Of a stretch of 40,269 nt of DNA, positions 1 to 32,735 are shown piece after piece (positions within the stretch are counted from its first letter, which is position 1; each line of letters begins with the position of its first letter). The notes below the pieces were generated by a model. That model saw nothing but the letters and a program-made list of their open reading frames with translations. It was not told the origin of the DNA and did no database searches. The position numbers and the translations under genes were made by a program. This DNA is from Myxococcota bacterium (lineage in GTDB: Bacteria; Myxococcota; UBA4151). The stretch spans positions 1 through 40,269 of the forward strand of contig JAYZBQ010000057.1 in assembly GCA_036338695.1 (NCBI GenBank), written 5' to 3'.

Positions 1-218
1 CCCGCCGCGGCGCCCCCGCCCCCCCCCCCCTTCTCGATCGGCCCTGCGTCACGGAAGCCGTGCCGCTGAGGACCGCGGCACACGGACTTCAAGTTCGCCA
101 GCGCCTCGAGCTGGCGCGCCCCGTCCTTGACCAATAGCTGCCTCGCCGCCTGGGCGATGCTCTGCGGTTTCGGCAGGGCGCCGGCGAGCAGCGCAGCGGT
201 CAAGAACAGCTGGACCAT
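1..218 (-). CDS. Hypothetical secreted protein, partial (runs off the window start)
   Basis: ATG at 218 overlaps the TGA of the upstream gene (TGATG). My translation, MVQLFLTAALLAGALPKPQSIAQAARQLL..., begins like a signal peptide and stays open to the window edge. The terminal poly-C tract is suspect. Confidence 0.55.
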   Translation of the reverse strand, partial: MVQLFLTAALLAGALPKPQSIAQAARQLLVKDGARQLEALANLKSVCRGPQRHGFRDAGPIEKGGGGGGAAA

Positions 219-1279
219 CAGATCTCGTCAAACATGTACGGCCAGATGGCGTCGATCCGGTCCTGGAACCCTTCGGGGTAGAGGTACCAAAGCGCCGCCG
301 CCACCGAGCTCACCAATGAGTTCCCGTCTTGGGGCGTAAAGCAGAACCCGACAACCTCGCGCTTATTCCGAACCGCTACGGTCGAGGTCGGCACGACGCT
401 CTGGTTCAGAATGCGCCCGTAGAAGCCGTGGTCGCGCCCAAAGCTGAACACCGAGTTCGAGCTCTTGCGGTCGGTCATGGCGATCCAGTCGTCAGCCTGC
501 AGGCGACCGATCACCTCTTCGACCGTCGTGTCTCGGGTCATCTCGAGCGCAAAGTGCATCTGGTGCATGTACTGCGTGTTCAACTTGACCGCCGACGAGA
601 AGATGTCGGGGTCATGACCGAGCGTCTGCAGCAGGTGCCAGGCGTCGCGTGCATGGTGCGTCCCAAAGCGCTCATCGCTGTGATCGCCCACTTGCGGGCT
701 CGGGATGAACGAGGAGTCCTGGCTGATGTCGTTGGCGCGCCGCATCAACAAGAACCGACCCGACTTGAGGTCCAAGCCACCTTGCGTGTTGCCGGTGATG
801 CATTTGACCATGCGGCTCAGGTTATGCGTGTTGCAGCTCACGACCTGCAAGAACCGGTCTTCACCGGGGACGAGCGACTCATCGTTGATCCCCCGTGCGT
901 ACATCTTGCCAAAGCCGAACTCGGAACCCTGAGCGATGAACCCGCGCGGACCGTCGACCTTTTTGTACAGTCGCTCTTTGTTGGCGTTGCCCGCTGGGGT
1001 GCAATCGATCACGACCGATGCGCGCGCCAGCGCCTCGTCGTGCGTGAACGCCGGCTTGTGCCCAAGCGCCTCGAAGTCGGCGCGTACGTCTGAATCGACG
1101 ACGAGCTTGGCGCCGCGACGCACCAGCGCCTCGACCTTAGCTCGCTCACGTGCGATCGGCGTGCGCTTGTGAAAGGTCACCTCATCAATGCCGAACTCCT
1201 TGCGAAACCGGCACAACAACCCGATCAGCGGCTCACCGATGGTGCCCGTACCGACCACATGAACATGACGTCGCGTCAT
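218..1279 (-). CDS. Archaeal-type (class II) glyceraldehyde-3-phosphate dehydrogenase-like protein
   Basis: Rossmann motif VVGTGTIG, VVIDCTP, FIAQGSE, catalytic-type VVSCNTH, RRAND, THHARD and MHQMH correspond to class II GAPDH motifs (GYGTIG, DxTP, FQGGE, VVSCNTT, RRxxD, SHHxxD, MHxH). GGGGAG SD upstream. Confidence 0.75.
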   Translation of the reverse strand: MTRRHVHVVGTGTIGEPLIGLLCRFRKEFGIDEVTFHKRTPIARERAKVEALVRRGAKLVVDSDVRADFEALGHKPAFTHDEALARASVVIDCTPAGNANKERLYKKVDGPRGFIAQGSEFGFGKMYARGINDESLVPGEDRFLQVVSCNTHNLSRMVKCITGNTQGGLDLKSGRFLLMRRANDISQDSSFIPSPQVGDHSDERFGTHHARDAWHLLQTLGHDPDIFSSAVKLNTQYMHQMHFALEMTRDTTVEEVIGRLQADDWIAMTDRKSSNSVFSFGRDHGFYGRILNQSVVPTSTVAVRNKREVVGFCFTPQDGNSLVSSVAAALWYLYPEGFQDRIDAIWPYMFDEI

Positions 1280-1422: not shown

Positions 1423-3096
1423 ATGTCCGAGCTTTTCGCTGGAAAATACCTGCTCAAAGAGCGCCTCGGTGTGGGCGGGATGGCCGAGGTCTGGCTTGCG
1501 GAGCTCAAGGGCCCCCAGGGGTTCTCAAGACAGCTCGTGATCAAGCGCATCCTCCCCCACTTAGCTGATGACGACAACTTCATCACGATGTTCGAGGACG
1601 AGGCGCGCCTAGCGGCTCGGCTCAACCACCCACACGCCGTGCGCGTCGAGGAATTCGGTCAGTCTGGGGACGTCTGGTACCTCGCGATGGAGTACCTCGA
1701 CGGCGGCGACCTGCGCCGCCTCACCCGCGCAGCGCTGACCCGCAACGAATCCGTGCCCCTTGAGGTCCTGCTCCAAATGGGCGGCGACGTCGCCGCTGCG
1801 CTCCATCATGCGCACACGCTCGCAGGGGCTGACGGTCAGCCGCTGAACATGATCCACCGCGACGTCAGCCCGCACAACATCCTCGTGACCACGCAAGGTC
1901 AAGCCAAGCTCGTCGACTTCGGGATTGCCCGAGCCGAGTCCAACCAGGTCAAGACACGCACCGGCATGGTCAAAGGCAAAAGCGGCTACATGAGCCCCGA
2001 GCAGGCGCTGGGTCGCACCTTAGACGGTCGCTCAGACCAGTTCGCCTTAGCCATCGTTTTTTACGAGACCGCAGCGCAGGCGCGGATCTTCCAAGGCGAG
2101 AACGACCTTGCGATCATGCGCAAGGTCGTTGCCTGTGAGATCCCGCCGCTGATCAGCGTCGACCCCAACACATCGCTCGAGTTCTCTGAGGTGCTCGAGC
2201 AGGCGCTGCAGCGCAGCGCTGAGGACCGCTTCCCGGACTGCGACGCCTTCGCCCAAGCCCTCTATGGCTGCTTGGACTCGGCGGGTTATCGAGGCGGTCA
2301 CCAACCCGTCGCCAGCTGGGTCACGCAGATGCGTGGCGTGGAGGGTAAGCTGACGAAGCTCCCCAGTCTGGATCAGCGACGAGACCTCAGCGGCGTGCGC
2401 GAGGAGATCACCAAGATCAGCCGCAGCCGCAGCGCCATGCAGCGAGCCTCAACACCTCAAAAGAGCCAAGCCGCTGCGGGGCGCCTCGGCGGCACGCAGA
2501 CGGCGCCACCACCGGCGGCGGCGGCGAGTTCGTGGCTCCCGCTGGTGCTCGCAGGTGGCTTGTTGTTACTCGGTGGCGTGGCGTATTTTGCGACCAGCCA
2601 GACGAGCCAGGACGCGCCCGATGCAGCGAGCGCGCCGAGCGCCCAACCAGCTCCTGAGCCAATGCCCCGCGAGCCGCGCATCGTGGTCGAGGAACCTGCA
2701 GCACCGAGCAAGGAGCCCAAAGTTCAAGCTGCGCCATCCACGCTGCCTCCTGCGAAAGCGCCCGCAGCGCAACCTGCCCCCAAGGTGAAAGCCAAGCGTC
2801 GCGTCAACAAGCCACGGCGTGCCAGCCCCCCGGCGCCGGCTCAGACTGCGAATTTGAAGGTGACGATCCGAGCCGGCAGCGACCCTCGGAGCCGAGGGTT
2901 GATCTACATCAACGGGCGGCGCGCCCGCGGCGCAACCGAACGCAACGCGACGGTCACGCTCCCGGTCGGCCGACACGAGGTGTGCGTCGTCAACCAAGAG
3001 TTTGGCATCGCCAAAAGGGAGACGGTGACGCTCCCGCCAGCTGGGCGGCGCATCTACATCAAAATGACCGACGCCCCATCGGGGTCCTGCCCCTAA
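1423..3096 (+). CDS. Hanks-type Ser/Thr protein kinase with TM helix, Pro/Ala-rich linker and C-terminal PEGA-like domain
   Basis: LGVGGMAEV, VIKRIL, HRDVSPHN, DFGIA, YMSPEQ, RSDQFAL; TM segment WLPLVLAGGLLLLGGVAYF. Start moved from the ORF-track 1150 to ATG 1423 (MSELFAGKY). Confidence 0.93.
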   Translation: MSELFAGKYLLKERLGVGGMAEVWLAELKGPQGFSRQLVIKRILPHLADDDNFITMFEDEARLAARLNHPHAVRVEEFGQSGDVWYLAMEYLDGGDLRRLTRAALTRNESVPLEVLLQMGGDVAAALHHAHTLAGADGQPLNMIHRDVSPHNILVTTQGQAKLVDFGIARAESNQVKTRTGMVKGKSGYMSPEQALGRTLDGRSDQFALAIVFYETAAQARIFQGENDLAIMRKVVACEIPPLISVDPNTSLEFSEVLEQALQRSAEDRFPDCDAFAQALYGCLDSAGYRGGHQPVASWVTQMRGVEGKLTKLPSLDQRRDLSGVREEITKISRSRSAMQRASTPQKSQAAAGRLGGTQTAPPPAAAASSWLPLVLAGGLLLLGGVAYFATSQTSQDAPDAASAPSAQPAPEPMPREPRIVVEEPAAPSKEPKVQAAPSTLPPAKAPAAQPAPKVKAKRRVNKPRRASPPAPAQTANLKVTIRAGSDPRSRGLIYINGRRARGATERNATVTLPVGRHEVCVVNQEFGIAKRETVTLPPAGRRIYIKMTDAPSGSCP

Positions 3097-3572
3097 TCGC
3101 TCGGCGGCTGCTCAAGCCCTAGCCGCATACGCGGGTTCTCGGCCCCGCGCAGCGCCTCGATCTGTCGCTCGATCACGTCCGTCAGGTCAAAGAAGAGCTC
3201 ACCGCGCCAGCGCTCGCCGCACGAGATGCGCACACGATCGAGCCAGCGCTCGCCCCCAACTAACTCCAAACTTTTCACCTCAACCGGCTGACCACACGGT
3301 GGATGATCCACCCAGGTCCGAGCGAAGCCCAACTCGGCGATGCTGGCGGGGCCGTCTTTGACCACCACCGGAGCCTCCTCGGTGCCCATGCCGGCCTTCA
3401 CCCAGAGCCCTTGCGGCGTCTCAACCAGTTGATCGGGCGGCGCCTTGATCGTCAGGGTCACGTCTCGCGGCCCGCTCGGTGTTGGAGCAGCCGGTGGACT
3501 CGCCGGCGGCGCAGGCTCGGAGGCCGGGCAACCGCCCACAAGGCAGCCGATCAGCGCCGCAGCGAACCTCAT
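3093..3572 (-). CDS. Hypothetical lipoprotein
   Basis: Lipobox-like LVGGC and Pro-rich tether. ATGA overlap with the tyrS stop implies translational coupling. Confidence 0.7.
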
Positions 3573-4813
3573 GCACCGATCATTCGAAAAAATCGGCGCT
3601 TGCCCACGCGCAAGACCCAGTCACCGCTCGGGATCTCTTGAAAGGGGTCCTCGGCAACCTCACCGTCGATACGCACGCCACGCCCTTGCACAAGGCGCCT
3701 CGCCTCGCCGCGCGACTTCGCAACCCCTGCTGCGACGAGACAGCCGAGGTAATCGGTCTGCGCAGCGAGCTGCACCTCGGGCAGGTCATCAGGCAGAGCG
3801 TCTTTGTCGTGTGAGATCCGCTCGAACTCTGCGCGCTCATGCGCGCCCGCTTGCGCTCCGGAGAATCGAGCGGTGATCTCTTGAGCGAGGTCAAGCTTCG
3901 CCTGCTTTGGGTGCACAGAGCCGTCGGCGACCTGGGCCTTCAGCTGCTCGATCTCCGCAAGGCTTCGATCGCTGAGGAGCTCGTAGTAGCGCCACATCAG
4001 CGGGTCGCAGATGCGCATCATTTTGCCGAACTGATCGCGTGCGGGCTCGTCGACCCCAATCGCGTTGCCCAAGGACTTACTCATCTTGGCGCCACTCACG
4101 CCCTCACCGTCTGCCTGGGCGTCGATCCCCTCGAGCAAAGGATTGGTCATGACGATCTGCGGGGGCAGCTTGCTGCCGCGCTCCATCTCCTGCTTCATCA
4201 GCGTTCGGCCAAGGAGGAGATTGAAGAGTTGATCATCGCCGCCGAGCTCGACATCTGCTTTGAGCATCACCGAATCCCAGGCTTGGACCAGCGGGTACAA
4301 GAACTCATGGATGGCGATGCTCTGCCCCGCCTTGTAGCGCTTATCAAAATCGTCGCGTTCGAGCATACGCGCCACCGGGTATCGGCTGGCGAGGGCGATT
4401 AATTCAGAGGCGGGCATGTCGCCAAACCACTCGGAGTTAAAGCGGACCTCCGTCTTCTCTGGGTCCAGGATTTTGAAGACCTGGGCTTTGTAGGTCTCGG
4501 CGTTGCGCTTGACGTCGTCGAGCGTTAGCGGCGGGCGCGTCTTCGAGCGGCCGGTCGGGTCACCGATCATCGCCGTAAAATCGCCGATCAAGAAGATCGC
4601 GGTGTGACCGAGATCTTGAAAGCGCTTCATCCGCTGCAGCAAGACCGTATGCCCCAAGTGGAGGTCAGGCGCGGTCGGATCAAAACCCGCCTTGACCCGG
4701 AGCGGTTGTCCGGTTTCTTGGCTGCGCTCAAGCCGTTTGAGCAGCTCCTCCTCGCTGTGGAGGCTGACGCAGCCGCGGCTGAGTTCTGCTACCTGTTCTT
4801 CCAAGCCGAGCAT
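3569..4813 (-). CDS. tyrS: Tyrosine--tRNA ligase
   Basis: [13 protein letters not shown] (HIGH), [24 protein letters not shown]-terminal S4-like domain (RVGKRRF). ATG 4813 is preceded by AGGGAG. Confidence 0.97.
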
Positions 4814-4827
4814 GACACCCAAACTCC

Positions 4828-6354
4828 CTACATCGCCGTTTCGCTGATGCGCGTCTCTCGCACCACGTGCACGCGCACCTCGCCCATCGTGTCGGATTGC
4901 TCCTCGATCCGTCGCGCCAAGCGCTGCGCCAACGCCAGCAAGCGCCCCTCGGCGACGCGGTCTGGATCGACGAGCACGCGGATCTCTCGCCCAGCCTGGA
5001 CGGCATGCGCGCTGCGCACACCCTCTTCACTGGCTGCCAGATTCTCCAAATGCGTCAAGCGCTCGACGGCCTTGCCCAGCTGCTCCTGACGGGCGCCGGG
5101 GCGGTTCTCTGCCAGCTTGAGCGCCGACGAGACGATCATCCCCGCAACCGTCGCCGGGTCTCCATCACTCGCCAGGTCCTGAAGCGCAGCCACCACCAAC
5201 TTGCTCTCGCCATGCTTCGCCGCCAGATCGGCGGTCACCTTTGCGACGCTGCCTTCAAAGTGATGATCAGCGGCCCGACCCACCAACGACAAGAGGCCGG
5301 CGCGCCGAACGACCTTCGGCGACTGCCCCAGGCTCTCCGCGATCAGCTCGGACAGGTGCGCCACGTTGATCGCAAGCATCAGCTGATCCTGACCGAGGAC
5401 TTGGTGGAACTGCAGCTTACCCAAGAGCAAGAGCAGCGCCGGGTTGACGCCGTGCACCCCGAGCTCAGCGGCGGCGTCCTCGCCCCGCTGCCGACAGACC
5501 TTGTCCAGGTTCGAGCCCGCCTTTTTCACCGACTCCTCGATGCGAGACGGGTGAATGCGCCCATCTTCGATCAGCCGCTCAAGCGCCATACGCGCAACCT
5601 CTCGACGGACCGGGTTAAAGCAGCTCAACGTAATCAACTCAGGGGTGTCATCGATGATGACGTCCACCCCGGTCGCTTGCTCGAAGGCTTGAATGTTGCG
5701 CCCCTCACGACCGATGATCCTGCCTTTGGACTCGTCGCTCGGGAGGTTGACCGCCGTGGTTGTGATCTCAGCGACCGTCTCCGAACCATAGCGAAAGACC
5801 GCCTTGGCGAGCAGCTTGGTCGACTCCTCCCTGAGGTTGTCGGTCACTTGCTGCTGAAGCCGTCGAATCTCGCCTGCGGCGCGCTGCTCTGCATCACTCA
5901 TCAGCTGCGCCTCTAGGCGAGCCAAAGCCTCTTCTTGGGTCAGGTTCGCGACCCGCTCGAGCGCCGAGTTCAGCTCGCCCTCCTGATCAGCGAGTCGCTC
6001 TTGAAGCGTCGTCAGACGCGCCTCCTTCTTGTCCAGCGACCTCTCGTCTTGCGCCAGCTTCTGCCGGTCCGTGTCCAACTTGGCGCGCTGCGACTTGAGC
6101 TGCTTTTCTTGCTCTTGAAGCTCTGCCCGCTCAGCCCGAGCTTCTTGAATGCTCTGCTTGAGCTCATCCTCGCTGGCCTGTTGCTCCGAGGTGAGCTCTT
6201 CTTTGAGCTGCTCGAGGCGTTGTTCTTGATCCGCCTTGAGGCGTTCAAGACGGCGTTGTGCGCCGTCGAGCTGCGTCTTCGCGCGCCGTGAAGCGACGAA
6301 GAGCCCGAGCCCGATACCCAGCATCAGCGCTCCGATTGCTACGACCATCTCCAT
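4828..6354 (-). CDS. rny: Ribonuclease Y homolog with degenerate (probably inactive) HD domain
   Basis: N-terminal TM helix, long coiled coil, KH motif [50 protein letters not shown] and [10 protein letters not shown] are all present. The HD motif position reads [15 protein letters not shown] before ATG 6354. Confidence 0.92.
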
Positions 6355-6922
6355 GGTCTTGCTCCTTCTTCTTGGCGACGTAGACATGACGCTCTGTCAC
6401 GACGACGTCCACCGTGTAATCGAAGGATGCTAAGGGGACATCAGGGTAGAGCCCTGCTTCATCGGTCAACCCGATGGTCAACGCAGCATGAGTCCGCAGG
6501 TAGCGATCGTAAAATCCCTTCCCACGACCCAGCCGAGCACCGTTCGGGCTAAACGCCAACCCCGGCACCAAGATCACATCGGGTCGCCTCACTGGCGCCT
6601 CCGTGGGCGGCTCGAGGATCGAGCGCCAACCCGGCACCAGCTCACCCCGTGCGCACACGTGAAACACGAGGTCCTCACCCGCCACACGAGGCCAGGCTTG
6701 AACCCCTGGCGCTCGCTGAAGGATCGGCTCTCCGTCGATCGCCGCAAAGCAACCGACGACCAACGGCCGCGCCTCAAGGGGCGGCAGGCACTCGCCGAGG
6801 ACCTGGTCGATCGCCTCGCCGATGCGCCTCCAATAACCGCTGTCTCGCTGGGCTCGACGCGCCCTCTCGAGCGCTCGAAGCGCCCGCTTCTGTGCGCTCA
6901 CTGGCGTATCCAACGTGCTCAC
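6245..6922 (-). CDS. ygfA: 5-formyltetrahydrofolate cyclo-ligase
   Basis: ILEP, DVILVPGLAF, RLGRGKGFYDRYL and VDVVVTE motifs; canonical position downstream of 6S RNA. The C-terminal tail overlaps the rny start. Confidence 0.9.
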   Translation of the reverse strand: MSTLDTPVSAQKRALRALERARRAQRDSGYWRRIGEAIDQVLGECLPPLEARPLVVGCFAAIDGEPILQRAPGVQAWPRVAGEDLVFHVCARGELVPGWRSILEPPTEAPVRRPDVILVPGLAFSPNGARLGRGKGFYDRYLRTHAALTIGLTDEAGLYPDVPLASFDYTVDVVVTERHVYVAKKKEQDHGDGRSNRSADAGYRARALRRFTAREDAARRRTTPS

Positions 6923-6970
6923 ACGTGCCGCTGCGAGACGGACGGTTGACGGGCCAACCGAAGGGACCCA

Positions 6971-7140
6971 ACTGCTCGACGCATCACCTGGTGCTCTCGA
7001 CCTGCTGCAGCAGGTGGGTGTTGGAGGAGGCGCTTCTGGTACGTTTCCCGCAGAAAACCATTCACTCCACGCCTTTCAAACCAACTCCCAGAAAGGAAAT
7101 GCGGCCGGAACCACTCTGTGTGGTCATGCGCCGACGCAGT
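6971..7140 (-). ncRNA. ssrS: 6S RNA
   Basis: Lies between zapA and ygfA, the established ssrS synteny. About 170 nt. The ends pair (ACUGC-g-UCGGCGCAU-g-ACC with GGU-g-AUGCGUCGA-GCAGU), there is an inner stem (UGGGAGUUGG...AGGCG with CGCCU...CCAACACCCA), and a CCCACCUG...CAGGU 3' bubble hairpin of the type seen in 6S RNAs. Ends are approximate. Confidence 0.85.
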
Positions 7141-7141
7141 C

Positions 7142-7456
7142 TTAGATGGGCCCTCCAGAATCTGTGATCAACTCTTCTAGTTGCCGGCGAACCACACCGA
7201 GCTCGCCAGATGTCTCCTCAATCATCCTCCGCGCCTCCGTCCGATGGTTCTCGTACGTAAGGCAGATGGTGAAGAGGGCTTGGACCAACTGCGTGCTGGT
7301 CGGGCCCCCATCAGTACTTCCTTTATTCGCAGCAAGGAGTCGACCGAGTACCTCATTGGCTCGATCTGCAGCAGCGACCAGAGCCTCCTCGGAATGACTC
7401 CCGACTTGGACTCTCAGGCGGCGACTTCCTACTTTGACCTCGAGCTTCTGACCCAT
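7142..7456 (-). CDS. zapA: Cell division protein ZapA family
   Basis: 104 aa with N-terminal beta hairpin (LEVKVGSRRLRV), EEALVAAA helix and C-terminal coiled coil; immediately upstream of 6S RNA; AGGAG SD. Confidence 0.75.
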   Translation of the reverse strand: MGQKLEVKVGSRRLRVQVGSHSEEALVAAADRANEVLGRLLAANKGSTDGGPTSTQLVQALFTICLTYENHRTEARRMIEETSGELGVVRRQLEELITDSGGPI

Positions 7457-9861: not shown

Positions 9862-9999
9862 CCCACCTCCCATCGGCGGCGTCGGTACTCTGGGCGGCTC
9901 AGCGGCGCAATGATGGTTTTTGATGAACCTACGCGAAGTGGCGGATCGACGCGCTCGGTGTTTTCATGGCTGATAGGAGGGCGACGACCAGGAGACCAC

Positions 10000-11289
10000 A
10001 TGAAGCGCGTTTGGCCATGGTTGATCTTCGGGCTGCTCGGTTGTGGCGGCGAGGATCCTCCAGCTGCTCCGCAAGGGCAGGTCTATTGCATCGACCAATC
10101 CGACTGCGAATCCGGCTTCGCCTGTGATAGCTGGACCGGTCTTTGCGTCTGCGCTTCCTCCGGGGTCTGCCCTGATCAACAGCTGTGCAACCCCTACACG
10201 GGGCGCTGCGAGGTCCAGGAGGATCGCTGCGCGAGCGACACCGCCTGCTCCCCGAGCGAATACTGCGGACCCGATGGTCGCTGCGCCCAGCGAAAAAGCC
10301 TGTGTGAAGCCTGTGAGAGCTCCAGCGAATGCGGCGGCGCAGACGACCTGTGTCTCCCGGGCGGCGCCTGCGGCTTGGACTGCAGCGACGACGCCGACGC
10401 CTGCCCTCCCGGCTCGATCTGCTGGCCGTTCGAGAATGCGTCGCAATGCGTCCCGGCGCTTGGCGACTGCTCCGTCCCGCCGCGCTGTCGCGCCGCCTCG
10501 GATTGTCCGCCGGGCAACACCTGCGACGATGGCGTCTGCCAAGCCCGCTGCCAGAGCGACACCGACTGTCCGGCGCAGTGGCGCTGCCTCGATGGTCTTT
10601 GTCGCGCGCCCGCTCGCTGTGAGACCGACCAGGAGTGCCCCCAAGGGACGATCTGTCAGTCTGCGCGGTGCCTCCCCGGCTGCTCGGACAACAGCGGCTG
10701 TCCGCTGGGTGAGACCTGTCAATCAGGGCGCTGCGAACAAGGCTGCGACGAACACGCTGACTGCCCGCTCGATCGTGCTTGCCAAGCGGGTCAGTGCGTC
10801 GATGAGGTCTGCACCGGAAACGACTGCGCCCTGGCGTGTCAGGTGGACCTTTTCTGCGGCCCGGGACGGCACTGCGATCGCAGGCAAGGCCGCTGTCGCG
10901 ATGGTTTACCGGGGGGCTTGTGCGTCGCGTGCAACCAGATGGTGGCTGGGCAATGCGGCACCGGCTTGTGCCTCGGAACGCCCACTCGGCGTGCGTGCAC
11001 TGGCGACCGAGACTGCGCGGCAGCCGGAGAATACTGCGACCGTGCTTACGGCTGCTTCCGTGATCGTGAGTGCCCATCCGGACAGACCTGCACGGGCGCC
11101 AACATTGCGCAAAACCAAGCCGGTAGCTGCAGCGGCGGCACCTGCTCGAACTTCCGTTGTGCGTCGGCGTGCCAGCCCGAGGCCGGCAACTGCCCGGTCG
11201 GCTTCACCTGCGAAGAGGTGCGGCGAGCTGGCGGCGGCGCCGTGATCGGGACCTACTGCCAACCCGAAGATGGTCAAGCGTGTCCGTAG
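10000..11289 (+). CDS. Cysteine-rich repeat lipoprotein (CxxDxxCPxxxxC modules)
   Basis: AGGAG SD, signal MKRVWPWLIFGLLGC with lipobox, many CxxDxDCPxGxxCxxGxC repeats. Confidence 0.85.
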   Translation: MKRVWPWLIFGLLGCGGEDPPAAPQGQVYCIDQSDCESGFACDSWTGLCVCASSGVCPDQQLCNPYTGRCEVQEDRCASDTACSPSEYCGPDGRCAQRKSLCEACESSSECGGADDLCLPGGACGLDCSDDADACPPGSICWPFENASQCVPALGDCSVPPRCRAASDCPPGNTCDDGVCQARCQSDTDCPAQWRCLDGLCRAPARCETDQECPQGTICQSARCLPGCSDNSGCPLGETCQSGRCEQGCDEHADCPLDRACQAGQCVDEVCTGNDCALACQVDLFCGPGRHCDRRQGRCRDGLPGGLCVACNQMVAGQCGTGLCLGTPTRRACTGDRDCAAAGEYCDRAYGCFRDRECPSGQTCTGANIAQNQAGSCSGGTCSNFRCASACQPEAGNCPVGFTCEEVRRAGGGAVIGTYCQPEDGQACP

Positions 11290-12056
11290 CGCCGCTCCAT
11301 GTGGTCCGGCGAGGCGATGGTCCTCCGCTCATCCTGCTGCACGGATTCTTTAGCGACCATCGCTTATGGGCTCCGGTCGTCGATGCGCTGGCGGCCTCCC
11401 ACCACTGCGTCAGCGTCGACCTCCCCGGACACGGGCGATCGGCGACCTGGCGTGGGGCTTGGACCGACCTTCTCGATCAGCTCGACGCGCTCGTCGAGGC
11501 GTGCTCGGCGCCCGTCAGCGTGGTGGGCTATTCGCTCGGTGCGCGCGTCCTAGGACAACTCCTCCAGCGGCGCGGCGCGCCCATCGACGCCGCCGTGCTG
11601 ATCTCGGCGAACCCGGGCTTTGCCTCCTTTGCGGCGGAGCAACGGCGCCAACGAGATGAAGAACTGGGCGCTCGGATGCGCGCCTTTCCGCTCCAGCAAA
11701 CGGTCGATGAATGGGCCGCTCAGCCGATCTTTGAAGGGCAAGATCGCGCGCCCACCCCAGCGCTCGAGCGCCAGCGCGCGCTCCGCCTTGACCAGAGCCC
11801 TGATGGGCTCGCCTTTGCCCTCACGCGCTTTGGCGCAGGGACCGCATCCATCGAGCATGCACCGAGCCGAGGCCGTCGCATCGTTTTGATGAGCGGAGAC
11901 CGGCTCGAGATCGACCGAGCGCGCGCTCGGGCGCTCGCAAGCCGCTGGCCGGACGCCGAGCTCTCCTGGCTCGAGGGCTGCGGGCACAATCCGATCATCG
12001 AGGCACCGGAACGGCTAAACGCTCGCCTACGCCAACTGCTTCAAACGACCCATTAA
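11280..12056 (+). CDS. menH: Alpha/beta hydrolase, MenH (SHCHC synthase)-like
   Basis: LLHGF, VDLPGHG, GYSLGAR nucleophile elbow, RRQRDE, WAAQPIF and GHN (catalytic His) are MenH-type motifs; adjacent to a menC-like gene. GTG start at 11280 is inferred. Confidence 0.72.
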   Translation: MSVAPLHVVRRGDGPPLILLHGFFSDHRLWAPVVDALAASHHCVSVDLPGHGRSATWRGAWTDLLDQLDALVEACSAPVSVVGYSLGARVLGQLLQRRGAPIDAAVLISANPGFASFAAEQRRQRDEELGARMRAFPLQQTVDEWAAQPIFEGQDRAPTPALERQRALRLDQSPDGLAFALTRFGAGTASIEHAPSRGRRIVLMSGDRLEIDRARARALASRWPDAELSWLEGCGHNPIIEAPERLNARLRQLLQTTH

Positions 12057-12103
12057 TGCCCGGAAGACTTGGCAGATCGAAGCGAACCGACTAGCCACAC
12101 TCT

Positions 12104-13132
12104 ATGGCACCGCATCACCTGCTTGATCGATACGACGATGAAGACGCAGCCGAGCGCTACTACTCGATGCGTCTGCGCCATGCGCTGCCCACGGCGCAAG
12201 GCTTGTTCGAGACATTTGATGGCCGCTGGGTCTACGCCCTGGGCGCCGATCCACACGCACCCTTCGGCGTCGGTGATGCGCCGATTCTTCCAGGCTTTGA
12301 GTCGGCTCAGGATGCGATCGACGACTTCGCGTGCGAGGCGGCTGAATTCGTCAAGGCGGCGGAGGAAGCTGAGCTGCCTTTGTATGCCCACTTGGTGAAC
12401 CTGTTCGTGGGCGGCTCCATGCCTCCACCAATGCACAGCGTCCTTATTCACGAGACCTGCAGCATCGGTCAGAGCATGGCGGCGGCGGCGCGATCCCGCC
12501 TGCGCGGCGTGCACACCCTTAAAGTCAAGGTCGACCCTGACGCCGGTCTTGAGCAGAGCCTGCGAGCGCTAGAGCGGTTGCGCGAGACCTACCCCGACCT
12601 GACACTCCGGGTCGACCTAGGAGGCGCCATGACCGAGCTGCTCGAGCTCGGGCAAAATCCCCTGCCGTGGCTCGAGCGCTTCGCTGCGCTGAACGTGGAC
12701 TATCTCGAAGACCCGGTGCGCGCCGACCTGATCGATCTGCTCCCCGAAGGCGTGGCACCGATCGGGCTCGACCTTATCGACGCCAGCGTCGAGCGCGCCA
12801 AAGAGACCATCGAGCGCGGTCAGATCCAAACGCTCATCCTCAAACCGCACCTATGCGGCTCATTCGGCAGCGCCTTTGCTCTAGCGAGGACCGCCGCGGC
12901 GCGGCACGTTAGAGTGGTGCTCTCGAGCCTCTACGACTCACCGGTCGGCATCGCCACGCTCATTCATGTGGCGGTGGCGCTTGGCCTCAGCGCCACGGCG
13001 CACGGTCTCAACACCCTGAGCCTAACCTATCCTCACCCTTGCGCAGCGCTGCGTCCTGGGCGCGATGGACGCATCCTCGTCCCGCGCGGGCCGGGCCTTG
13101 GGCTGCCCTCCGGACCTTGGATACCCTCATGA
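12104..13132 (+). CDS. menC: Enolase superfamily protein, o-succinylbenzoate synthase-like
   Basis: GDAPILPGF, TLKVKV (KxK), LRVD, YLEDP, GLD, ILKP, VVLSS and HGLNT match OSBS layout; sequence is divergent. Confidence 0.7.
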   Translation: MAPHHLLDRYDDEDAAERYYSMRLRHALPTAQGLFETFDGRWVYALGADPHAPFGVGDAPILPGFESAQDAIDDFACEAAEFVKAAEEAELPLYAHLVNLFVGGSMPPPMHSVLIHETCSIGQSMAAAARSRLRGVHTLKVKVDPDAGLEQSLRALERLRETYPDLTLRVDLGGAMTELLELGQNPLPWLERFAALNVDYLEDPVRADLIDLLPEGVAPIGLDLIDASVERAKETIERGQIQTLILKPHLCGSFGSAFALARTAAARHVRVVLSSLYDSPVGIATLIHVAVALGLSATAHGLNTLSLTYPHPCAALRPGRDGRILVPRGPGLGLPSGPWIPS

Positions 13133-13902
13133 CGGATCATGTCCTGTGCACACGCCACGAAGGCTGCGCGCACGTGGCGTTAAATCGACCGCGCGCCAAC
13201 GCGATCGGCGCCGAGATGGTCGATGGGCTCCTCGCAACGCTGACCGAGCTCGAAGGGGACAACTCGATCCGTTGCGTCATCCTGACCGGCGCACCGGGCA
13301 TGTTCAGCGCCGGGCTCGACGTCCCGCAGTTGATCGAGTTTGACCGCGCTCAAATGACCTCATTCTGGCGAGCCTTCAACAGGCTCTGCTATCGACTCTA
13401 CACCTCCGACCTGATGATCGTCAGCGCCATCAGCGGTCACAGTCCGGCGGGCGGCTGCGTCCTTGCGATCATGACCGATTATCGGGTGATGGTCGAAGGG
13501 CGCTACAAGATCGGGCTCAACGAGGTCGCCGTCGGGATCCCGATTCCTGGTGGGATCACCGATATCTACGCCTCGCTGCTCGGGGCCGCAGCGGCGCAGG
13601 ATCTCGGCTGTCGCGGCGCCATGGTCAGCCCCGACGAGGCGCTCGCCCTCGGGCTGGTCGACCAGCTCGCCCCTGCGGACGACCTGATGACGGCGGCCTC
13701 CGCCAAAGTCGCCGATTGGCTCGCCTGCGATCGCCGCGCCCAGGTCACGACCAAGCGGCTCTTTCGTCGCCGGCTGGCGCAGACGCTTGAGGCCACCGCC
13801 GAGCGCGACCAAGAGGCCTTTCTCGACCTCTGGTTCAGCGACAGCGCACAGACCACCCTCAAAGCGCTCGTCGCCCGGCTGAGCGACCGCCAACCCCGCT
13901 GA
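13129..13902 (+). CDS. Enoyl-CoA hydratase/isomerase (delta3,delta2-enoyl-CoA isomerase-like)
   Basis: FSAGLD, AISGHSPAGGC, DYRVM, IGLNEVAVGI, EALALGLVD. ATGA overlap with the menC-like gene. Confidence 0.85.
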   Translation: MTDHVLCTRHEGCAHVALNRPRANAIGAEMVDGLLATLTELEGDNSIRCVILTGAPGMFSAGLDVPQLIEFDRAQMTSFWRAFNRLCYRLYTSDLMIVSAISGHSPAGGCVLAIMTDYRVMVEGRYKIGLNEVAVGIPIPGGITDIYASLLGAAAAQDLGCRGAMVSPDEALALGLVDQLAPADDLMTAASAKVADWLACDRRAQVTTKRLFRRRLAQTLEATAERDQEAFLDLWFSDSAQTTLKALVARLSDRQPR

Positions 13903-18578: not shown

Positions 18579-19000
18579 ACCAGGTCTACGTCTATCCTCA
18601 TAGGGGCCGGTTTCAAGACATTGACGCAGCCGGTATCCTCTTCTTTGCGCGCAACTTCGACTACTTCCACGACGCCTATCTTGCGTTCCTCGAGCACCTT
18701 GAGATGCCGCTTCATGAGCACCTCGACGACGCCGAGTTTGTGATCCCGTTGGTCCATGCGGAGGCAGACTTCGCCAAGCCCATCCGCTTTGGCACCCGCT
18801 GCGATGTCCACATCGAGGTCGCTCGACTCGGTACGAGCAGCTTCACGCTGGCGTACACACTCAGAGGGGACGGTGACCGCGTCCTAACCACCGGCCAGAC
18901 CGTTCACTGCTGCGTCGAGCGCGCAACGTTCGCGTCTAGGGCACTCCCCGAGCGGCTCTCGGCGGCGCTCAAACCCTATCAAGCGGCTACCAGCCCGTGA
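18575..19000 (+). CDS. Acyl-CoA thioesterase (4HBT hotdog fold)
   Basis: RFQDIDAAGILFF, PLVHAEADF, LGTSSF, TVH. ATGA overlap with the YceI gene. Confidence 0.85.
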   Translation: MNQVYVYPHRGRFQDIDAAGILFFARNFDYFHDAYLAFLEHLEMPLHEHLDDAEFVIPLVHAEADFAKPIRFGTRCDVHIEVARLGTSSFTLAYTLRGDGDRVLTTGQTVHCCVERATFASRALPERLSAALKPYQAATSP

Positions 19001-22000
19001 CCTCGGCGGGGGCTTGCCCCTCAGCCCAGCAGTGGACCGTCCAGTCGCTCTTGCTCACGCAGTAGCCGTTCTCACCGAACCGCGAGATGCTCTGAACATT
19101 GGGCAAGTTGGGGATCGGGTTCGCCTGGTGAGTGTACCCTGAGCCCCAACAGTGCACGTTGTTGTTCCCCATGATCACGCACCCGTTGTTGCGGTTGGTC
19201 GCAAGCGAGGTGCTGCCTAAGGTCCCGGTGATCTCGATCGGCCCGTAGACCGGGATCTCACCGGCGACACGGCCCGACTGTCCGTCACCGTTTGACCCCC
19301 AACATCGGGTCACGTCGTTGCTCATATTCAGACACATAAAGTTGTACCCTGGCGATGCGCTTCGCACACCGGCGACCCCTTCGAGCAGCAGCGGGGAGCT
19401 CGCCTCGCGCGGCCCGTCCGCTCCGGGGTAGTGCATCCCATAGGGTAGATTACCCCAGCACCACGAGAAGCCGGTCATACCCACAGCGCAGATGCTGTCG
19501 TTGTACAAGTGGACGCTGCGCACCCGGGTGATCCCCGGCACGGCCGTTGCGCGTCGCACCACGTGGCTTTGATCGTTGTTACCGATTCCGAGCATCCCTG
19601 AGTTGTTCCCACCCCAGCATGCGACGGTTTGGTTCTCCTGGCGTACGCAGGTGGTCTCCGCTCCCGCCGAGATCTGTGTAGCGCCTGCGACCCCTTGAAC
19701 CGCCACGGGGACCGAGCGGTGAAAAACGGTCCCGTCACCCACCTGCCCGGCGTAGTTTGCGCCCCAGCATCGCACGGCGCCGGACTCGAGCACGGCGCAG
19801 ACGTGGGCGTCGCCGACCGCTGCGTCCACCACACCGTTGAGCTCCGGAACAAGCACCGGGTTCTCGGTGTTTTGCGTCGTCCCGTTCCCTAGGACACCGT
19901 ATCCATTATCGGTCGCTTTGCAGCGCAGCTCAGCCCGCGCTGTGATCCCGCACAGGATGCCGCGCGCCCGCCCGCCGACCACCTTGACGATGCGGTGCGT
20001 CCTCAGATCGACGCAGCCGTTCGAGCATTCATCGTCGTCGACCTGGTTGCCGTCGTCGCAGTTCTCGTAGCCCTCTGCGCCAGGCGCTAGGTCCGTCCGA
20101 ACGACCTGATCGCCGCACACGGCGCGCACGCAGCTGTTTCGGCACGCGTCCGTGTCGATCTCGTTGCCGTCATCGCAGGCTTCATAACCGTCTTGCCCCT
20201 CGACCACGTCGGTTCGGACGATCTGATCACCACATCGCGCCGCCACACAGTCGTTACGACAGGCGTCCGAGTGGGTCAGGTTGCCGTCATCACAGGCCTC
20301 GCCTGGATCCACGCGGCCGTTTCCGCATTGCTCGTTCTGGCAGCTGGCGTTGCAGCCGTCACCGACTTCTTGGTTGCCGTCGTCACACTCCTCATAGCCC
20401 TCATCGCCGGCCTCGAGGTCACGGCGCAAAACGCCGTCCCCGCAGCGCGCCGGCTGGCAGTCGTTTTTGCACCCGTCGCTGTCCACACGGTTGCCATCGT
20501 CGCAGCTCTCTGCGCCCTCAACGCCGGCGAGCAAGTCATCACGTACGATCCCGTCGCCGCAACGCGCCACGACGCACTCGTCGGTGCAGCCGTCCGTGCG
20601 CACCTCATTGCCGTCATCACAGGCTTCGTAGCCCTCTTGGTCTTCGGCGCGATCGCCCCGGACCCGACCGTCACCGCAGGTCGCCTCGGTGCAGTCGTTG
20701 AGGCAGGCGTCGGTCTCAAAACCGTTGCCGTCGTCACAGGCTTCTTCGTCGGAGACGATCCCGTCACCGCAGCCTTCTACTCGGCAGCGTGCGTTGCAGC
20801 CATCGCCTGCTGCCAGGTTCCCATCATCGCAGACCTCACCGCGCTGCACCTCACCGTCACCGCAGACCGGCGCCGACGGGCAGCCCTCGACCGCCTCACC
20901 CGAGCGGGCGTGGCGCTTCGCCTGGCTCCAATCAACCAGCGGCCCTTCACCGGCCGTCATGTCGTAGCTCAAGACCGCGTCATCGTCGGGCGCTAAGGGG
21001 TACTCAGGCACGAACGCCCCGTCGTAGCGCTCGGTCATGGAGACGCGTAAGGCCCCGACCGTTGCGCTCACGCTCGGCGCTACCTCGAGGTCAGGGAAAA
21101 ACGCATTGTCGGGGAAGTCTTCGGCGAGCGGGGTCCCGTTGAGGAACATCCGGCGCCGGTTCACGTCGCGTCGGTAGCTCACCGCCCAGTGGTTCCAGCC
21201 TTCGGGCACCTGACCTACGGGGACGACCAGCCGGTCGTCACCCCAGCCAAAGCTTGCGTTGGCTCCGGTCACTGCAGACAGACCGTGCGCCGTCATCAGC
21301 CCCGTGTCACCGTCGGATTTCAGCCAGCCCTCAATCGTGAAGTCACCGCCAAAGTCAAAGGGCGGGAGCGCATCGATGCCCACGCGTGAGAAGCACTCGT
21401 TTCGGCACCCTGAGCTGCACCCATCACCGTCGGTCTGGTTGCCATCATCACAGGTCTCTGGCGCCACGACCTCGCCGTCACCACAGGTGGGGGCGCACGC
21501 CAAGGGGGGTTCGCCCCCCTGACCGCTGCTGGTAAAAAACCCGCCGGTCTGCACGCCCTCGAACTGCACCATCAGGTCAGGGCGCCCCAGCGCATACAGG
21601 TGCGCCGTGCCGCCGAGGGTAAAGCGCTCTGGGCCAAAGCAGGTCTCGCCGCCGCTCATACCTGGGACGTGCTCATCCACGCTGATCCAGGCGTCGCTTT
21701 GAGTCTGCCGAAGCCGCCAGACACCGCTCATCTCTGCCGGCCACCCAGGGCACGCGTCGCTGACGGTCAGGGTGGCGGTTTGGAGCTTAAAGCCCGTCTC
21801 AGACGCCTCATAAAACGCCACTAAACCGCACTGCCTGGCGACCTCAAAGCGCATCTGCACCATCCCGATGCAGCCATGACCGTCGGTCCCTGCAGCGAGT
21901 CGGTGCGCCATCCCGTGCCCCACGGCGGCGCGGTTCAGGTCGATATCGGGAAGGGGCTGATAGGCGCCACCGGCGCCCACCCCGATCCGGAGGCGTCCGC

Positions 22001-22427
22001 TCAGCGACGGCACCTCCGTGCAGCGCTCAGCCGGCTGAACGATCGTGCCGGCGTCTCCGAGGTATCCTGCGTCGAACCCGGCGTCGAAACCAGCGTCAAC
22101 GAGCCCCACGTCAGCGAGCGTGCCAACGTCGGCGGGGCCCGCTTCAGGGGCCGGACGCAGCGCCCGAATACGGCATTTGTGGTCGCAGCCGTCCCAGTCT
22201 TCTTCGTTTCCGTCGTCGCACTCTTCGGTCGCTTCGTCGACGCGGCCATCGCCGCAGCTTCTTAGGACACAGCGCCCGAGCCGACATCGGTAGCCGACAA
22301 AGTCGTCTCCGAGCTCACGGGTGTGACAGTCTGGGTCGGTCTCGCAGGGAGGGAACTTCGCCACAAAGGTGTCCGGACACCCCAGAAGGATGACGCTGAG
22401 GACAGCGACGACGCCTATGCGGACCAA
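18987..22427 (-). CDS. Large surface lipoprotein: myxobacterial Cys-rich (DUF4215-like) repeats, LamG-like domain, C-terminal RCC1-like repeats
   Basis: TTG 22427 after AGGGGG gives [17 protein letters not shown] (lipobox). Ten CDDGN repeats; DFTIEGW/GWNHWAV (LamG-like); repeated VxCWGxNxxGQ/M (RCC1/BLIP-II-like). Confidence 0.85.
20010..20870 (-). repeat. Eight tandem intragenic Cys-rich repeats (CG[DN]G...ExCDDGN...C...C)
   Basis: Counted directly in the translation; recurring gttgccgtcgtcgca-like DNA on the + strand. Boundaries approximate. Confidence 0.85.
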
Positions 22428-22520
22428 GGTGAACCCCCTGAGTGACTCCTGCGTCGCAAGCTTAGCAGAAACTGCCGCCTGAAACACAGCCCCTTTCACC
22501 GTTCGGTTCGGTGCGACCGC

Positions 22521-31624: not shown

Positions 31625-32659
31625 GTGGACAACAGAGCGCGTCATCAAGCGGTCCTAATCACCGGCGCGAACGGCGAGATGGGCCATGGGCTCATCCAAG
31701 CGCTTGCGCGCCAGAACGTCGACCTCGTCGCTGTCGATCTACACCCCTTGGACCCGTCGCTGCGGTCGATGGTGCGAGCGCATCAAGCCGGCGATATCCT
31801 CGATACGCAGCTGATGCAGCGTCTGGTCAGTCAATATGAGGTGACGACCATCTTTCACTTGGCTGCGCTGCTGTCGACACGCGCCGAGTTTAGCCCAGAG
31901 ATCGCTCACCGAGTCAACGTGACGGGGACGCTCGAGCTCTTGCGCCTCGCACATCAGCAGAGCACCTGGTCGGGCGTGCGGACGAAGTTTATCTTCCCGT
32001 CGTCCATCGCAGCCTACGGCGTCGCCGGTAAGAAGGACTCGCTCGATGCCCTCAAAGAGCACGAGTACACACAGCCGACGACTATGTACGGCTGCAACAA
32101 AGTGTATTGTGAGCACCTAGGGCGCTACTTCGCCGAGTACTATCAGCAGCTCGCAGCCGAGCCGAGCAAGGGCGGCGTCGACTTTCGCTGTATTCGTTTC
32201 CCCGGGCTGATCTCGGCCGACACGGTACCTAGCGGTGGGACCTCTGACTTCGGACCTGAGATGATCCACGCGGCGGCGCAAGGGCAGCCCTATGCCTGCT
32301 TTGTGCGCCCAGACACGACCATCCCGTTTATGGCGATGCCCGACGGCGTCCAAGCGCTCCTTGACCTGTACGCTGCCCCCGAAGAGGCGCTGTCTCAACG
32401 CGTGTACAACATCAACGCCTTCTCGTGCTCTGCGCAGGACTTCTGCGATGAGGTGCACAAACATTTTGAGGCGCCGCAGGTCAGCTTTGTCCCGCACCTC
32501 AAACGCCAAGCCATCGTCGACTCGTGGCCGGCAGCGGTCAACGATGCGCCCGCCCGTCGAGACTGGGGATTTTCGCCCCAATACGACCTCCAGACCGCCT
32601 TCAATGACTACCTCGTTCCCAGGATCTCGGCTCGTTACCGCGCAGATGGGGGCAGATAG
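31625..32659 (+). CDS. tdh: NAD-dependent epimerase/dehydratase, SDR-type L-threonine 3-dehydrogenase-like
   Basis: ITGANGEMG, HLAALLS, PSSIAAYG, PTTMYGCNK (YxxxK), RFPGLIS, GGTSDF, RQAIVDSWP and ARRDWG are typical of the GalE-like ThrDH family. Confidence 0.75.
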   Translation: MDNRARHQAVLITGANGEMGHGLIQALARQNVDLVAVDLHPLDPSLRSMVRAHQAGDILDTQLMQRLVSQYEVTTIFHLAALLSTRAEFSPEIAHRVNVTGTLELLRLAHQQSTWSGVRTKFIFPSSIAAYGVAGKKDSLDALKEHEYTQPTTMYGCNKVYCEHLGRYFAEYYQQLAAEPSKGGVDFRCIRFPGLISADTVPSGGTSDFGPEMIHAAAQGQPYACFVRPDTTIPFMAMPDGVQALLDLYAAPEEALSQRVYNINAFSCSAQDFCDEVHKHFEAPQVSFVPHLKRQAIVDSWPAAVNDAPARRDWGFSPQYDLQTAFNDYLVPRISARYRADGGR

Positions 32660-32735
32660 CCCGCGACCGGTCTGGATCAATGATCGCCTTCTGACGTATC
32701 CCCTTCCGAGACCCCAGTGGGCTCCGGAGTACACG

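What the first reader, a model, noticed from the sequence alone, without database searches (positions are those of the whole stretch)
4828..6354. Full-length RNase Y with all HD-domain metal ligands replaced: a candidate membrane-anchored pseudo-nuclease
Seen in the translation (HD domain at about 5090-5400), compared with the RNase Y consensus as I recall it from B. subtilis: YGQNVLKHS becomes LGQDQLMLA (H to L), AGLLHDIGK becomes AGLLSLVGR (HD to SL, nt 5284-5289), EGSH becomes EGSV, ASHH becomes QDLA, and AADA becomes SALK (D to L). The hydrophobic scaffold of the domain remains. The TM anchor, coiled coil, KH motif with its GxxG loop ([12 protein letters not shown]), DGRIHP, RPGAR and QAGREIRV are near-canonical. 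The frame is intact and has a good SD. Established: the HD His-Asp pair is required for RNase Y cleavage. Inference: losing every ligand while keeping RNA-binding and oligomerisation parts suggests selection for a non-catalytic role, such as a membrane RNA tether, degradosome scaffold or inhibitor of an active paralog, rather than random decay.
Basis: partly seen in the sequence, partly recalled or inferred. Interest (0 to 1): 0.85.

Follow-up and report, generated by a model that had tools for sequence, protein, structure and literature searches.

The report
RNase Y split into complementary halves
This gene encodes an RNase Y that keeps its RNA-binding domain but has lost all seven metal-binding residues, while a second copy in the same genome shows the opposite pattern, so the two likely work together as one two-part RNA-cutting enzyme.

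Summary
Observation confirmed. The 508-aa protein passes the RNase Y HMM cut-off and keeps its anchor, coiled coil and KH loop, but has 0 of 7 HD-site His/Asp residues. It is not decaying: dN/dS is about 0.06, and nine close homologues share the loss.

This A/B pair occurs in 24 of 32 genomes of four Myxococcota classes. All 23 A copies keep KH and lose two pocket motifs; all 27 B copies do the reverse; 24 single-copy enzymes keep everything. Two genomes lost both genes cleanly from separate loci. A predicted A-B complex scored 0.80 (best control 0.00), with an asymmetric interface; paralogues of a homodimer may pass by likeness, and no homodimer control was run.

Best reading (0.7): an obligate heterodimer in which A binds RNA and B cuts. 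Against: 5 of 23 A copies keep all ligands, and nothing is shown biochemically. A B-type copy also occurs in Bdellovibrio bacteriovorus. Ten literature searches found no description; this scan noted the same pattern earlier on other DNA (unchecked notes).

The parts
4828..6354 (-). rny copy A: 508-aa RNase Y paralogue, KH intact, HD site dead
6362..6367 (-). Shine-Dalgarno-like AAGGAG, 7 nt before the ATG
   Evidence: sequence
6289..6351 (-). N-terminal hydrophobic membrane anchor (about residues 2-22)
   Evidence: hydrophobic peak in 20 of 21 A copies
5770..6285 (-). coiled coil and long helix (residues 24-195; PF12072); main predicted interface with copy B
5569..5769 (-). KH domain (residues 196-262) with intact GxxG loop at 5727-5692
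   Evidence: dN/dS about 0.011
5548..5565 (-). DGRIHP motif after KH: kept in 23/23 A copies, lost in 27/27 B copies
5092..5421 (-). pseudo-HD domain (residues 312-421): fold predicted kept; ligand positions L327 (5376-5374), S356-L357 (5289-5284), V370 (5247-5245), L394-A395 (5175-5170), L412 (5121-5119)
5389..5406 (-). residues 317-322, where single-copy and B enzymes have the R-x-S-Y-x-Q pocket motif; lost in 23/23 A copies; predicted to be covered by copy B
4831..5091 (-). C-terminal domain (residues 422-508), predicted second dimer contact
6245..6922 (-). context: 5-formyltetrahydrofolate cyclo-ligase family gene, upstream marker of the ancestral rny locus
6965..7145 (-). context: 6S RNA-like gene (29.3 bits, below the gathering score of 46.4; the syntenic copy in G039 scores 91.9)
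7142..7456 (-). context: zapA-like gene
3569..4813 (-). context: tyrS directly downstream. Partner copy B is outside the window, at G000:C48:181877-183397(-) (P0121)

Best explanation
The gene is an RNase Y paralogue (copy A) that has kept its KH RNA-binding domain and lost its metal site, and it likely works as the RNA-binding half of a heterodimer with a second paralogue (copy B) that kept the metal site and lost the KH loop. Shown: the reciprocal loss of motifs, purifying selection on both genes, their co-occurrence in four Myxococcota classes, and two clean joint deletions. [quoted passage not shown] Inferred: the ancestral RNase Y homodimer is functionally asymmetric, one subunit gripping RNA and the other cutting; once two copies existed, each lost the residues idle in its position, making the pair interdependent. 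Loss in A ran in steps: first the pocket motifs, then usually the last Asp, and in this family all seven ligands.
For: (1) Mirror paralogue in the same genome: HD 7/7, no GxxG, Pfam HD but no KH. (2) Tallies: KH loop and DGRIHP in A 23/23, B 0/27, single-copy 24/24; S-Y-x-Q and D-x-x-S-G motifs in A 0/23, B 27/27, single-copy 24/24. Of columns conserved in single-copy enzymes, 46 are kept in A and lost in B (27 KH, 12 linker) and 12 are kept in B and lost in A (7 HD, 4 C-terminal). (3) In 15 of 15 genome pairs compared, KH is more conserved in A than in B; HD is more conserved in B than in A in 14 of 15. (4) Both genes are under purifying selection: G000 vs G001 dN/dS is 0.056 for A (KH 0.011, HD 0.071) and 0.159 for B (KH 0.186, HD 0.033). 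(5) Both copies were found in 24 of 32 genomes of the four classes, and no intact single copy among them. In three of the four one-copy genomes the missing gene's neighbours are also missing or broken at a contig end. (6) Joint deletion: in G355 and G006 the flanking genes of both loci have closed up, with no remnant in the stretches tested. (7) Pairwise distances among A and among B copies correlate, r = 0.85, 0 of 2000 permutations (kin are not independent). (8) Predicted complex: score 0.80, best of 3 controls 0.00; the mark was reached by 116 of 157 solved complexes and 2 of 215 mismatched pairs; runs agree in at least 95% of contacts; partner pLDDT at least 79. No KH/HD position is in the interface on both chains. 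(9) B. subtilis RNase Y is a dimer whose models show one straight and one kinked helix, with doubled NMR peaks for residues 171-191 (PMC9775385, passages); H368A/D369A is inactive (PMC10303841, passages).
Against: Five of 23 A copies keep 7/7 ligands and nine lack only the last Asp, so A may not be dead everywhere. The complex was run with my own alignments and without A-A or B-B controls; close cousins of true partners passed in 10 of 12 calibration pairs, so paralogues of a homodimer can pass by likeness. Predicted interface positions are not more conserved than others (A KH 0.81 vs 0.81; B HD 0.72 vs 0.77). I had no coordinates, so the distance from A's KH loop to B's site is unmeasured. 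B's KH region keeps its fold and dN/dS below 0.35, so it may still do something. The genes are unlinked. Joint loss rests on two verified genomes in a phylum where 313 of 355 genomes have no rny match. A and B are not sisters in the best tree, though the AU test does not reject it (p = 0.35), and A is not one clade in the larger FastTree. Charge complementarity of the coiled coils is not significant at family level (r = -0.62, p = 0.14, n = 7).
Confidence: 0.7

Rival explanations
1. Independent careers: A is a stand-alone, homodimeric membrane RNA tether or scaffold (for example for the RNase E/G machinery), and B is a KH-independent HD phosphodiesterase acting on other substrates.
For: The genes are unlinked. 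The genome has two RNase E/G genes that could use a tether. B's coiled coil is strongly diverged, 18% identical to single-copy enzymes, and some B copies of family f19 show no hydrophobic anchor. Predicted interface residues show no extra conservation.
Against: Independent proteins need not be lost together from two separate loci (G355, G006) or show exactly reciprocal motif loss in 10 families. B keeps the whole RNase Y architecture.
Confidence: 0.15
2. A is a negative regulator: it binds B or competes for RNA and damps B's activity.
For: Overproduced HD-mutant RNase Y is dominant negative in B. subtilis (PMC10303841, passages). The predicted complex fits inhibition as well as activation.
Against: It does not explain why B lost its KH loop in 27 of 27 copies. 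No genome with both loci assembled was found to keep B without A (G002 not resolved). A holds the ancestral locus.
Confidence: 0.08
3. A still cuts RNA, using a rebuilt or residual metal site (for example D363-H364-H365 or D393).
For: His364 is invariant, and close relatives carry an Asp at 393. Five A copies elsewhere keep 7/7 ligands. HD sites are described as plastic (PMC8177086, passages).
Against: His364 is equally present in B and single-copy proteins, position 365 varies (H/Q/E), the substituting residues differ among relatives (L/M/K, S/A/C, V/S/T/I/A), and this loop is predicted to lie in the A-B interface.
Confidence: 0.04
4. Recent pseudogenisation of a redundant copy.
For: RNase E/G is present and rny is often lost in this phylum.
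Against: Open frames in all family members with a full copy, synonymous sites near saturation with dN/dS about 0.06, and the loss shared down to 54% identity.
Confidence: 0.01

Closest known systems
RNase Y (Rny; TIGR03319) of Bacillus subtilis and Staphylococcus aureus
   Same: Anchor, coiled coil, KH, HD fold and C-terminal domain; score above the family cut-off; dimeric architecture (PMC9775385, passages).
   Different: The known enzyme is one gene forming a homodimer with KH and HD both intact. Here the two functions sit on two unlinked genes, and this copy has 0 of 7 metal ligands.
RNase J1/J2 of Firmicutes
   Same: Paralogous bacterial RNases forming heteromers; inactivating the J2 site in S. 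aureus did not affect growth (PMC4419217 and PMC7864078, passages).
   Different: A different fold (recalled: metallo-beta-lactamase/beta-CASP). J2 keeps metal-dependent activity, and no reciprocal loss of an RNA-binding domain in J1 appears in the passages read.
Trypanosomatid prozymes (AdoMetDC/prozyme, deoxyhypusine synthase)
   Same: A catalytically dead paralogue needed in complex with an impaired partner (PMC5201418, PMC3663545; search listing and start of abstract only).
   Different: Eukaryotic metabolic enzymes activated allosterically. Here the dead copy would supply substrate binding, and activation is untested.
'Ribonuclease Y 2' of Bdellovibrio bacteriovorus (P0291; CAE80003.1)
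   Same: Falls in the same B clade (support 96), with HD motifs intact and no GxxG loop.
   Different: It is annotated by name only. I could not retrieve the other Bdellovibrio copy, so its HD state is untested here.
HD-fold domain of glycyl-tRNA synthetase beta chain
   Same: Top Foldseek match of the model (7eiv, E 1.6e-4, low TM-score). Recalled, not checked, as a non-catalytic HD fold.
   Different: Unrelated architecture and function; only a precedent for a metal-free HD fold.

Membership tests
RNase Y (TIGR03319) | Whole-protein score above the curated cut-off | tested here: met
   470.5 vs 454.35 bits; the two most distant family members fall below it (417.7 and 422.9)
RNase Y (TIGR03319) | N-terminal membrane anchor and coiled coil (PF12072) | tested here: met
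RNase Y (TIGR03319) | KH domain with GxxG loop | tested here: met
   PF00013 E 2.4e-7; motif in 23/23 A copies
RNase Y (TIGR03319) | HD domain with H...HD...H...HH...D metal ligands | tested here: not met
   0 of 7, no PF01966 hit; so a homologue by descent, not an active member by itself
RNase Y (TIGR03319) | Ancestral locus next to zapA, 6S RNA and 5-FCL | tested here: met
RNase Y (TIGR03319) | Endoribonuclease activity | not testable with these tools
   needs purified protein
Pseudoenzyme-partner heteromers (prozyme or RNase J1/J2 type) | Paralogue of an intact-site enzyme in the same genome | tested here: met
Pseudoenzyme-partner heteromers (prozyme or RNase J1/J2 type) | Dead copy under purifying selection and co-inherited with the partner | tested here: met
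   dN/dS about 0.06, mirror r = 0.85; joint deletions
Pseudoenzyme-partner heteromers (prozyme or RNase J1/J2 type) | Physical complex between the two paralogues | tested here: inconclusive
   model supports binding (0.80 vs control 0.00), but there was no homodimer control and cousins can pass
Pseudoenzyme-partner heteromers (prozyme or RNase J1/J2 type) | Dead copy raises the partner's activity | not testable with these tools
   needs a biochemical assay

The most novel reading that the evidence does not exclude
RNase Y is an intrinsically asymmetric, half-of-sites dimer in which one subunit's KH domain holds the RNA and the other subunit's HD site cuts it. In many Myxococcota and in Bdellovibrionota this asymmetry has been frozen into an obligate two-gene enzyme, an RNA-binding pseudo-nuclease plus a KH-blind nuclease, whose reciprocal losses map the working residues of each position in all RNase Y enzymes.
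Probability: 0.45. Interest if true: 0.88.

Novelty: new variant of a known kind. Interest (0 to 1): 0.75.

Why it matters
RNase Y starts mRNA decay in many bacteria, yet no solved chain matched this protein by sequence, and a 2024 review states that no structure of its KH domain with RNA had been reported (PMC11261784, passages). Why it must be a dimer and what KH contributes are open questions. A natural split pair makes both testable. It predicts that KH-dead and HD-dead mutants of B. subtilis RNase Y complement each other in trans, and it names the residues each subunit needs (46 for the RNA-binding position, 12 for the cutting position). It also means automatic annotation is backwards here: the dead copy passes the RNase Y cut-off, while the copy with the intact site fails it (232 bits) and one relative is labelled only 'HDIG domain protein'. 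A B-type copy in culturable Bdellovibrio offers a laboratory route.

Tried and rejected
Pseudogene decay: rejected (dS is near saturation, and three of seven pairs gave no finite dS for A, so the ratios are approximate). Rebuilt metal site from the DHH loop: not supported; not excluded, as I had no coordinates.

PDB sequence search: no hit. Foldseek gave KH (Dim2/exosome), HD (PgpH, GlyRS, PPX) and YiiP-like matches, all weak; only one had E below 0.001.

Expression: one 106-nt piece at 4915-5020, with no mismatch, in one seawater RNA run (share 0.05). This is too little to count as evidence.

Coiled-coil charge complementarity: r = -0.73 over 15 genome pairs but -0.62 (p = 0.14) over 7 families; two f19 pairs with uncertain starts and the partial copies were left out. 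A hint only. Interface conservation: no signal. Sister relation of A and B: unresolved. The genome-contig scan returned mostly ordinary Chloroflexota RNase Y. The Atlas search skipping HD clusters gave only shorter, probably truncated KH/N-terminal clusters below 0.9.

The Bdellovibrio A copy could not be reached: no second rny lay within the 17 B loci, and those records are not held as genomes. RNase J had no match in the own genome (93.6% complete).

Ten literature searches showed no paper on complementary RNase Y paralogues. Most subscription journals are not covered, and PMC6460267 (mentions 'rny1' and 'rny2') was not read.

Full report
1. Observation. The minus-strand frame 4828-6354 is open for 508 codons, with an AAGGAG 7 nt upstream. 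It scores above the RNase Y cut-off (470.5 vs 454.35). Pfam finds the N-terminal region and KH but no HD domain. Against 24 single-copy RNase Y proteins from the same phylum, the seven His/Asp positions of the H...HD...H...HH...D motif (motif as given in PMC8177086, passages) are L327, S356, L357, V370, L394, A395 and L412: 0 of 7. In B. subtilis the H368A/D369A mutant is inactive (PMC10303841, passages). The AlphaFold2 model (29-row alignment, mean pLDDT 80.7) keeps a helical HD-like bundle and a KH fold. The gene lies in ftsY-zapA-6S-5-FCL-rny-tyrS. The closest named record (82% identical) is a Myxococcota bacterium.

2. Not decay. The nine closest database proteins (54-85% identity) all lack the HD pair. 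Against G001, dN/dS is 0.056 overall, about 0.011 in KH and 0.071 in the dead HD domain (Nei-Gojobori, domain dN over gene-wide dS; dS is near saturation, so approximate).

3. A mirror-image paralogue. The own genome has two TIGR03319 matches. The second, G000:C48:181877-183397(-) (P0121, 507 aa, 24% identical), has all seven ligands and a Pfam HD hit but no KH hit. Its model keeps the KH fold without the GxxG loop. I call the window type A and this type B. The genome also has two RNase E/G genes and no RNase J match.

4. The pair across the phylum. Of 355 genomes at 90% completeness or more, 42 have an rny match; a second sample of 401 gave 55. I read 76 sequences from 53 genomes, 74 of them over 300 aa. 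Four genomes with matches (G042, G045, G047, G051) were not read. The KH loop and DGRIHP are in 23/23 A, 0/27 B and 24/24 single-copy proteins. The S-Y-x-Q and D-x-x-S-G pocket motifs are in 0/23 A, 27/27 B and 24/24 single-copy proteins. A was defined as the KH-bearing copy in a genome with two copies (plus G366, whose lone copy groups with A), so the pocket-motif count is not circular; B was defined by the missing loop. Of columns conserved in single-copy enzymes, 46 are kept in A and lost in B (27 KH, 12 linker) and 12 are kept in B and lost in A (7 HD, 4 C-terminal, 1 coiled coil). Ligand loss in A is graded: 7/7 in 5 copies, 6/7 (last Asp to Asn) in 9, 5/7 in 2, 3/7 in 2, 1/7 in 1, and 0/7 in the 4 of this family. 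In the four classes that hold the pair (32 genomes, 10 families with pairs), 24 have both copies (two with A as a contig-end fragment), 3 have B only, 1 has A only and 4 have neither. None has an intact single copy.

5. Exceptions and joint loss. B-only G016 also lacks relA, A's neighbour in that family, and in B-only G359 relA runs off a contig end. A-only G366 lacks both of B's tested neighbours. G002 (85% complete) was not resolved. In G355 (92%), 5-FCL lies about 300 nt from relA and the DHH gene about 700 nt from tldD, where relatives carry A and B. In G006 (100%), 5-FCL lies about 120 nt from relA, and the oxidoreductase gene abuts the homologue of B's downstream gene. No remnant was found in the four stretches tested (the fifth, L143, was read only as an ORF list). 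So two lineages deleted both genes from separate, assembled loci. G012 and G374 also lack both but were not verified this way, and loss of rny is common in the phylum.

6. History. With the trait columns removed, A (support 97) and B (98) are each one group in a 48-row tree. A and B as sisters is neither recovered nor rejected (p-AU 0.35). In a larger FastTree A is not one clade, while B holds (96) and takes in 71 of 138 representatives at 50% identity plus Bdellovibrio proteins. B. bacteriovorus carries a B-type protein named 'Ribonuclease Y 2'; of 117 long Bdellovibrio-type hits, 0 have the loop and 115 have the HD motifs tested. Its other copy could not be retrieved. Distances among A and among B copies correlate over 22 genomes (r = 0.85), as expected for long co-inheritance, though this alone does not show interaction. 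Duplication versus transfer is open.

7. Predicted complex. B(33-507) with A(24-508) scored 0.80; the best of 3 controls scored 0.00. The mark was reached by 116 of 157 solved complexes and 2 of 215 mismatched pairs (roughly applicable, since my own alignments were used). Runs agree in at least 95% of contacts and partner pLDDT is at least 79. The model supports binding but does not show it: cousins of true partners passed in 10 of 12 calibration pairs and no homodimer control was possible, although no solved RNase Y chain was found by sequence. [quoted passage not shown] In the KH/HD region they are wholly asymmetric: A contributes KH residues 225-250 and the rim of its dead pocket (317-320, 360-372), B contributes HD helices 325-338 and 395-413, and no position is used by both. 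A's GxxG loop and B's pocket rim are not listed as interface. B. subtilis dimer models also show one straight and one kinked helix, with doubled NMR peaks for residues 171-191 (PMC9775385, passages; its supplementary figures S13 and S16, not read, may bear on this). Interface positions are not more conserved than others, and the KH-to-site distance was not measured.

8. Mechanism. Shown: reciprocal motif loss, selection, co-occurrence, two joint deletions. Predicted: an asymmetric A-B dimer. Inferred: both chains anchor in the membrane, A's KH grips single-stranded RNA (the GxxG loop is the nucleic-acid-binding element of KH domains; PMC11261784, passages), and B's metal site cuts. The split could have arisen neutrally, since heteromers can replace homomers after duplication without benefit (PMC11066126, start of abstract only), so it need not imply a new function. 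Confidence 0.7. Rivals: independent roles 0.15, inhibitor 0.08 (HD-dead RNase Y is dominant negative in B. subtilis), residual activity 0.04, decay 0.01. The five A copies with 7/7 ligands and the persistence of B's KH fold are the main facts against a strict division.

9. Comparison and novelty. By descent this is RNase Y, but it fails the catalytic criterion. It works like the dead partner in RNase J1/J2 or prozyme pairs, with the added feature that the partner is itself crippled in RNA binding. Ten searches found no paper describing it, within a library that lacks most subscription journals. This scan's earlier notes report the same or a similar pattern in six other genomes, including a Bdellovibrio and a candidate-phyla bacterium. 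I saw them after forming my reading; they are unchecked and are not counted as support. Verdict: a real feature, a new variant of a known kind, interest 0.75.

Noticed in passing
window 6245-6354 (-): The 5-FCL reading frame runs 110 nt into the start of rny, about 48 codons beyond its domain match.
   Followed up: no
window 6965-7145 (-): A divergent 6S RNA: 29.3 bits, below Rfam's gathering score, but at the syntenic position where G039 has a 91.9-bit copy.
   Followed up: partly
window 218-1279 (-): A 353-aa ORF with no Pfam hit but weak matches to archaeal-type (type II) GAPDH models, E 2.6e-24, far below cut-off.
   Followed up: no
window 3093-3572 (-): A 159-aa ORF with no family hit, downstream of tyrS and conserved beside it in three relatives. 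In two of them (L043, L044) tyrS and this ORF are inverted relative to rny.
   Followed up: partly
L033:5878-11513 (G000:C48): Copy B's start overlaps the stop of a 1371-aa coiled-coil gene whose N-terminus looks receiver-like by eye. This neighbourhood, with an HD-GYP-type response regulator downstream, is conserved in the five family members tested. B's coiled coil has an arginine-rich segment in this family.
   Followed up: partly
L039, L076, L089, L091 (family f19 B copies): These B copies have short open frames (452-501 aa), and the two tested show no hydrophobic N-terminal peak, so they may lack the membrane anchor and rely on A for it.
   Followed up: no
P0011, P0016, P0017, P0021, P0027, P0033, P0046, P0091, P0111: A further RNase Y group with only the last Asp changed to Asn but the S-Y-x-Q motif kept (one is named Myxococcales). 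It may be an earlier stage, and the partner of the P0140-type B proteins; no genome context was available.
   Followed up: partly
P0188, P0213 and relatives (named Nitrospira/Nitrospiraceae): RNase Y proteins with Glu in place of the last Asp of the HD motif.
   Followed up: no
window 11157-13902 (+): menH-, menC- and menB-like genes in a row (menaquinone pathway; matches below NCBIfam cut-offs or Pfam only).
   Followed up: no
window 18987-22499 (-), 9910-11289, 32292-33845, 34515-35393: Large repeat-rich, probably surface proteins: DUF4215 plus RCC1 repeats, and three with weak DUF7107 hits.
   Followed up: no
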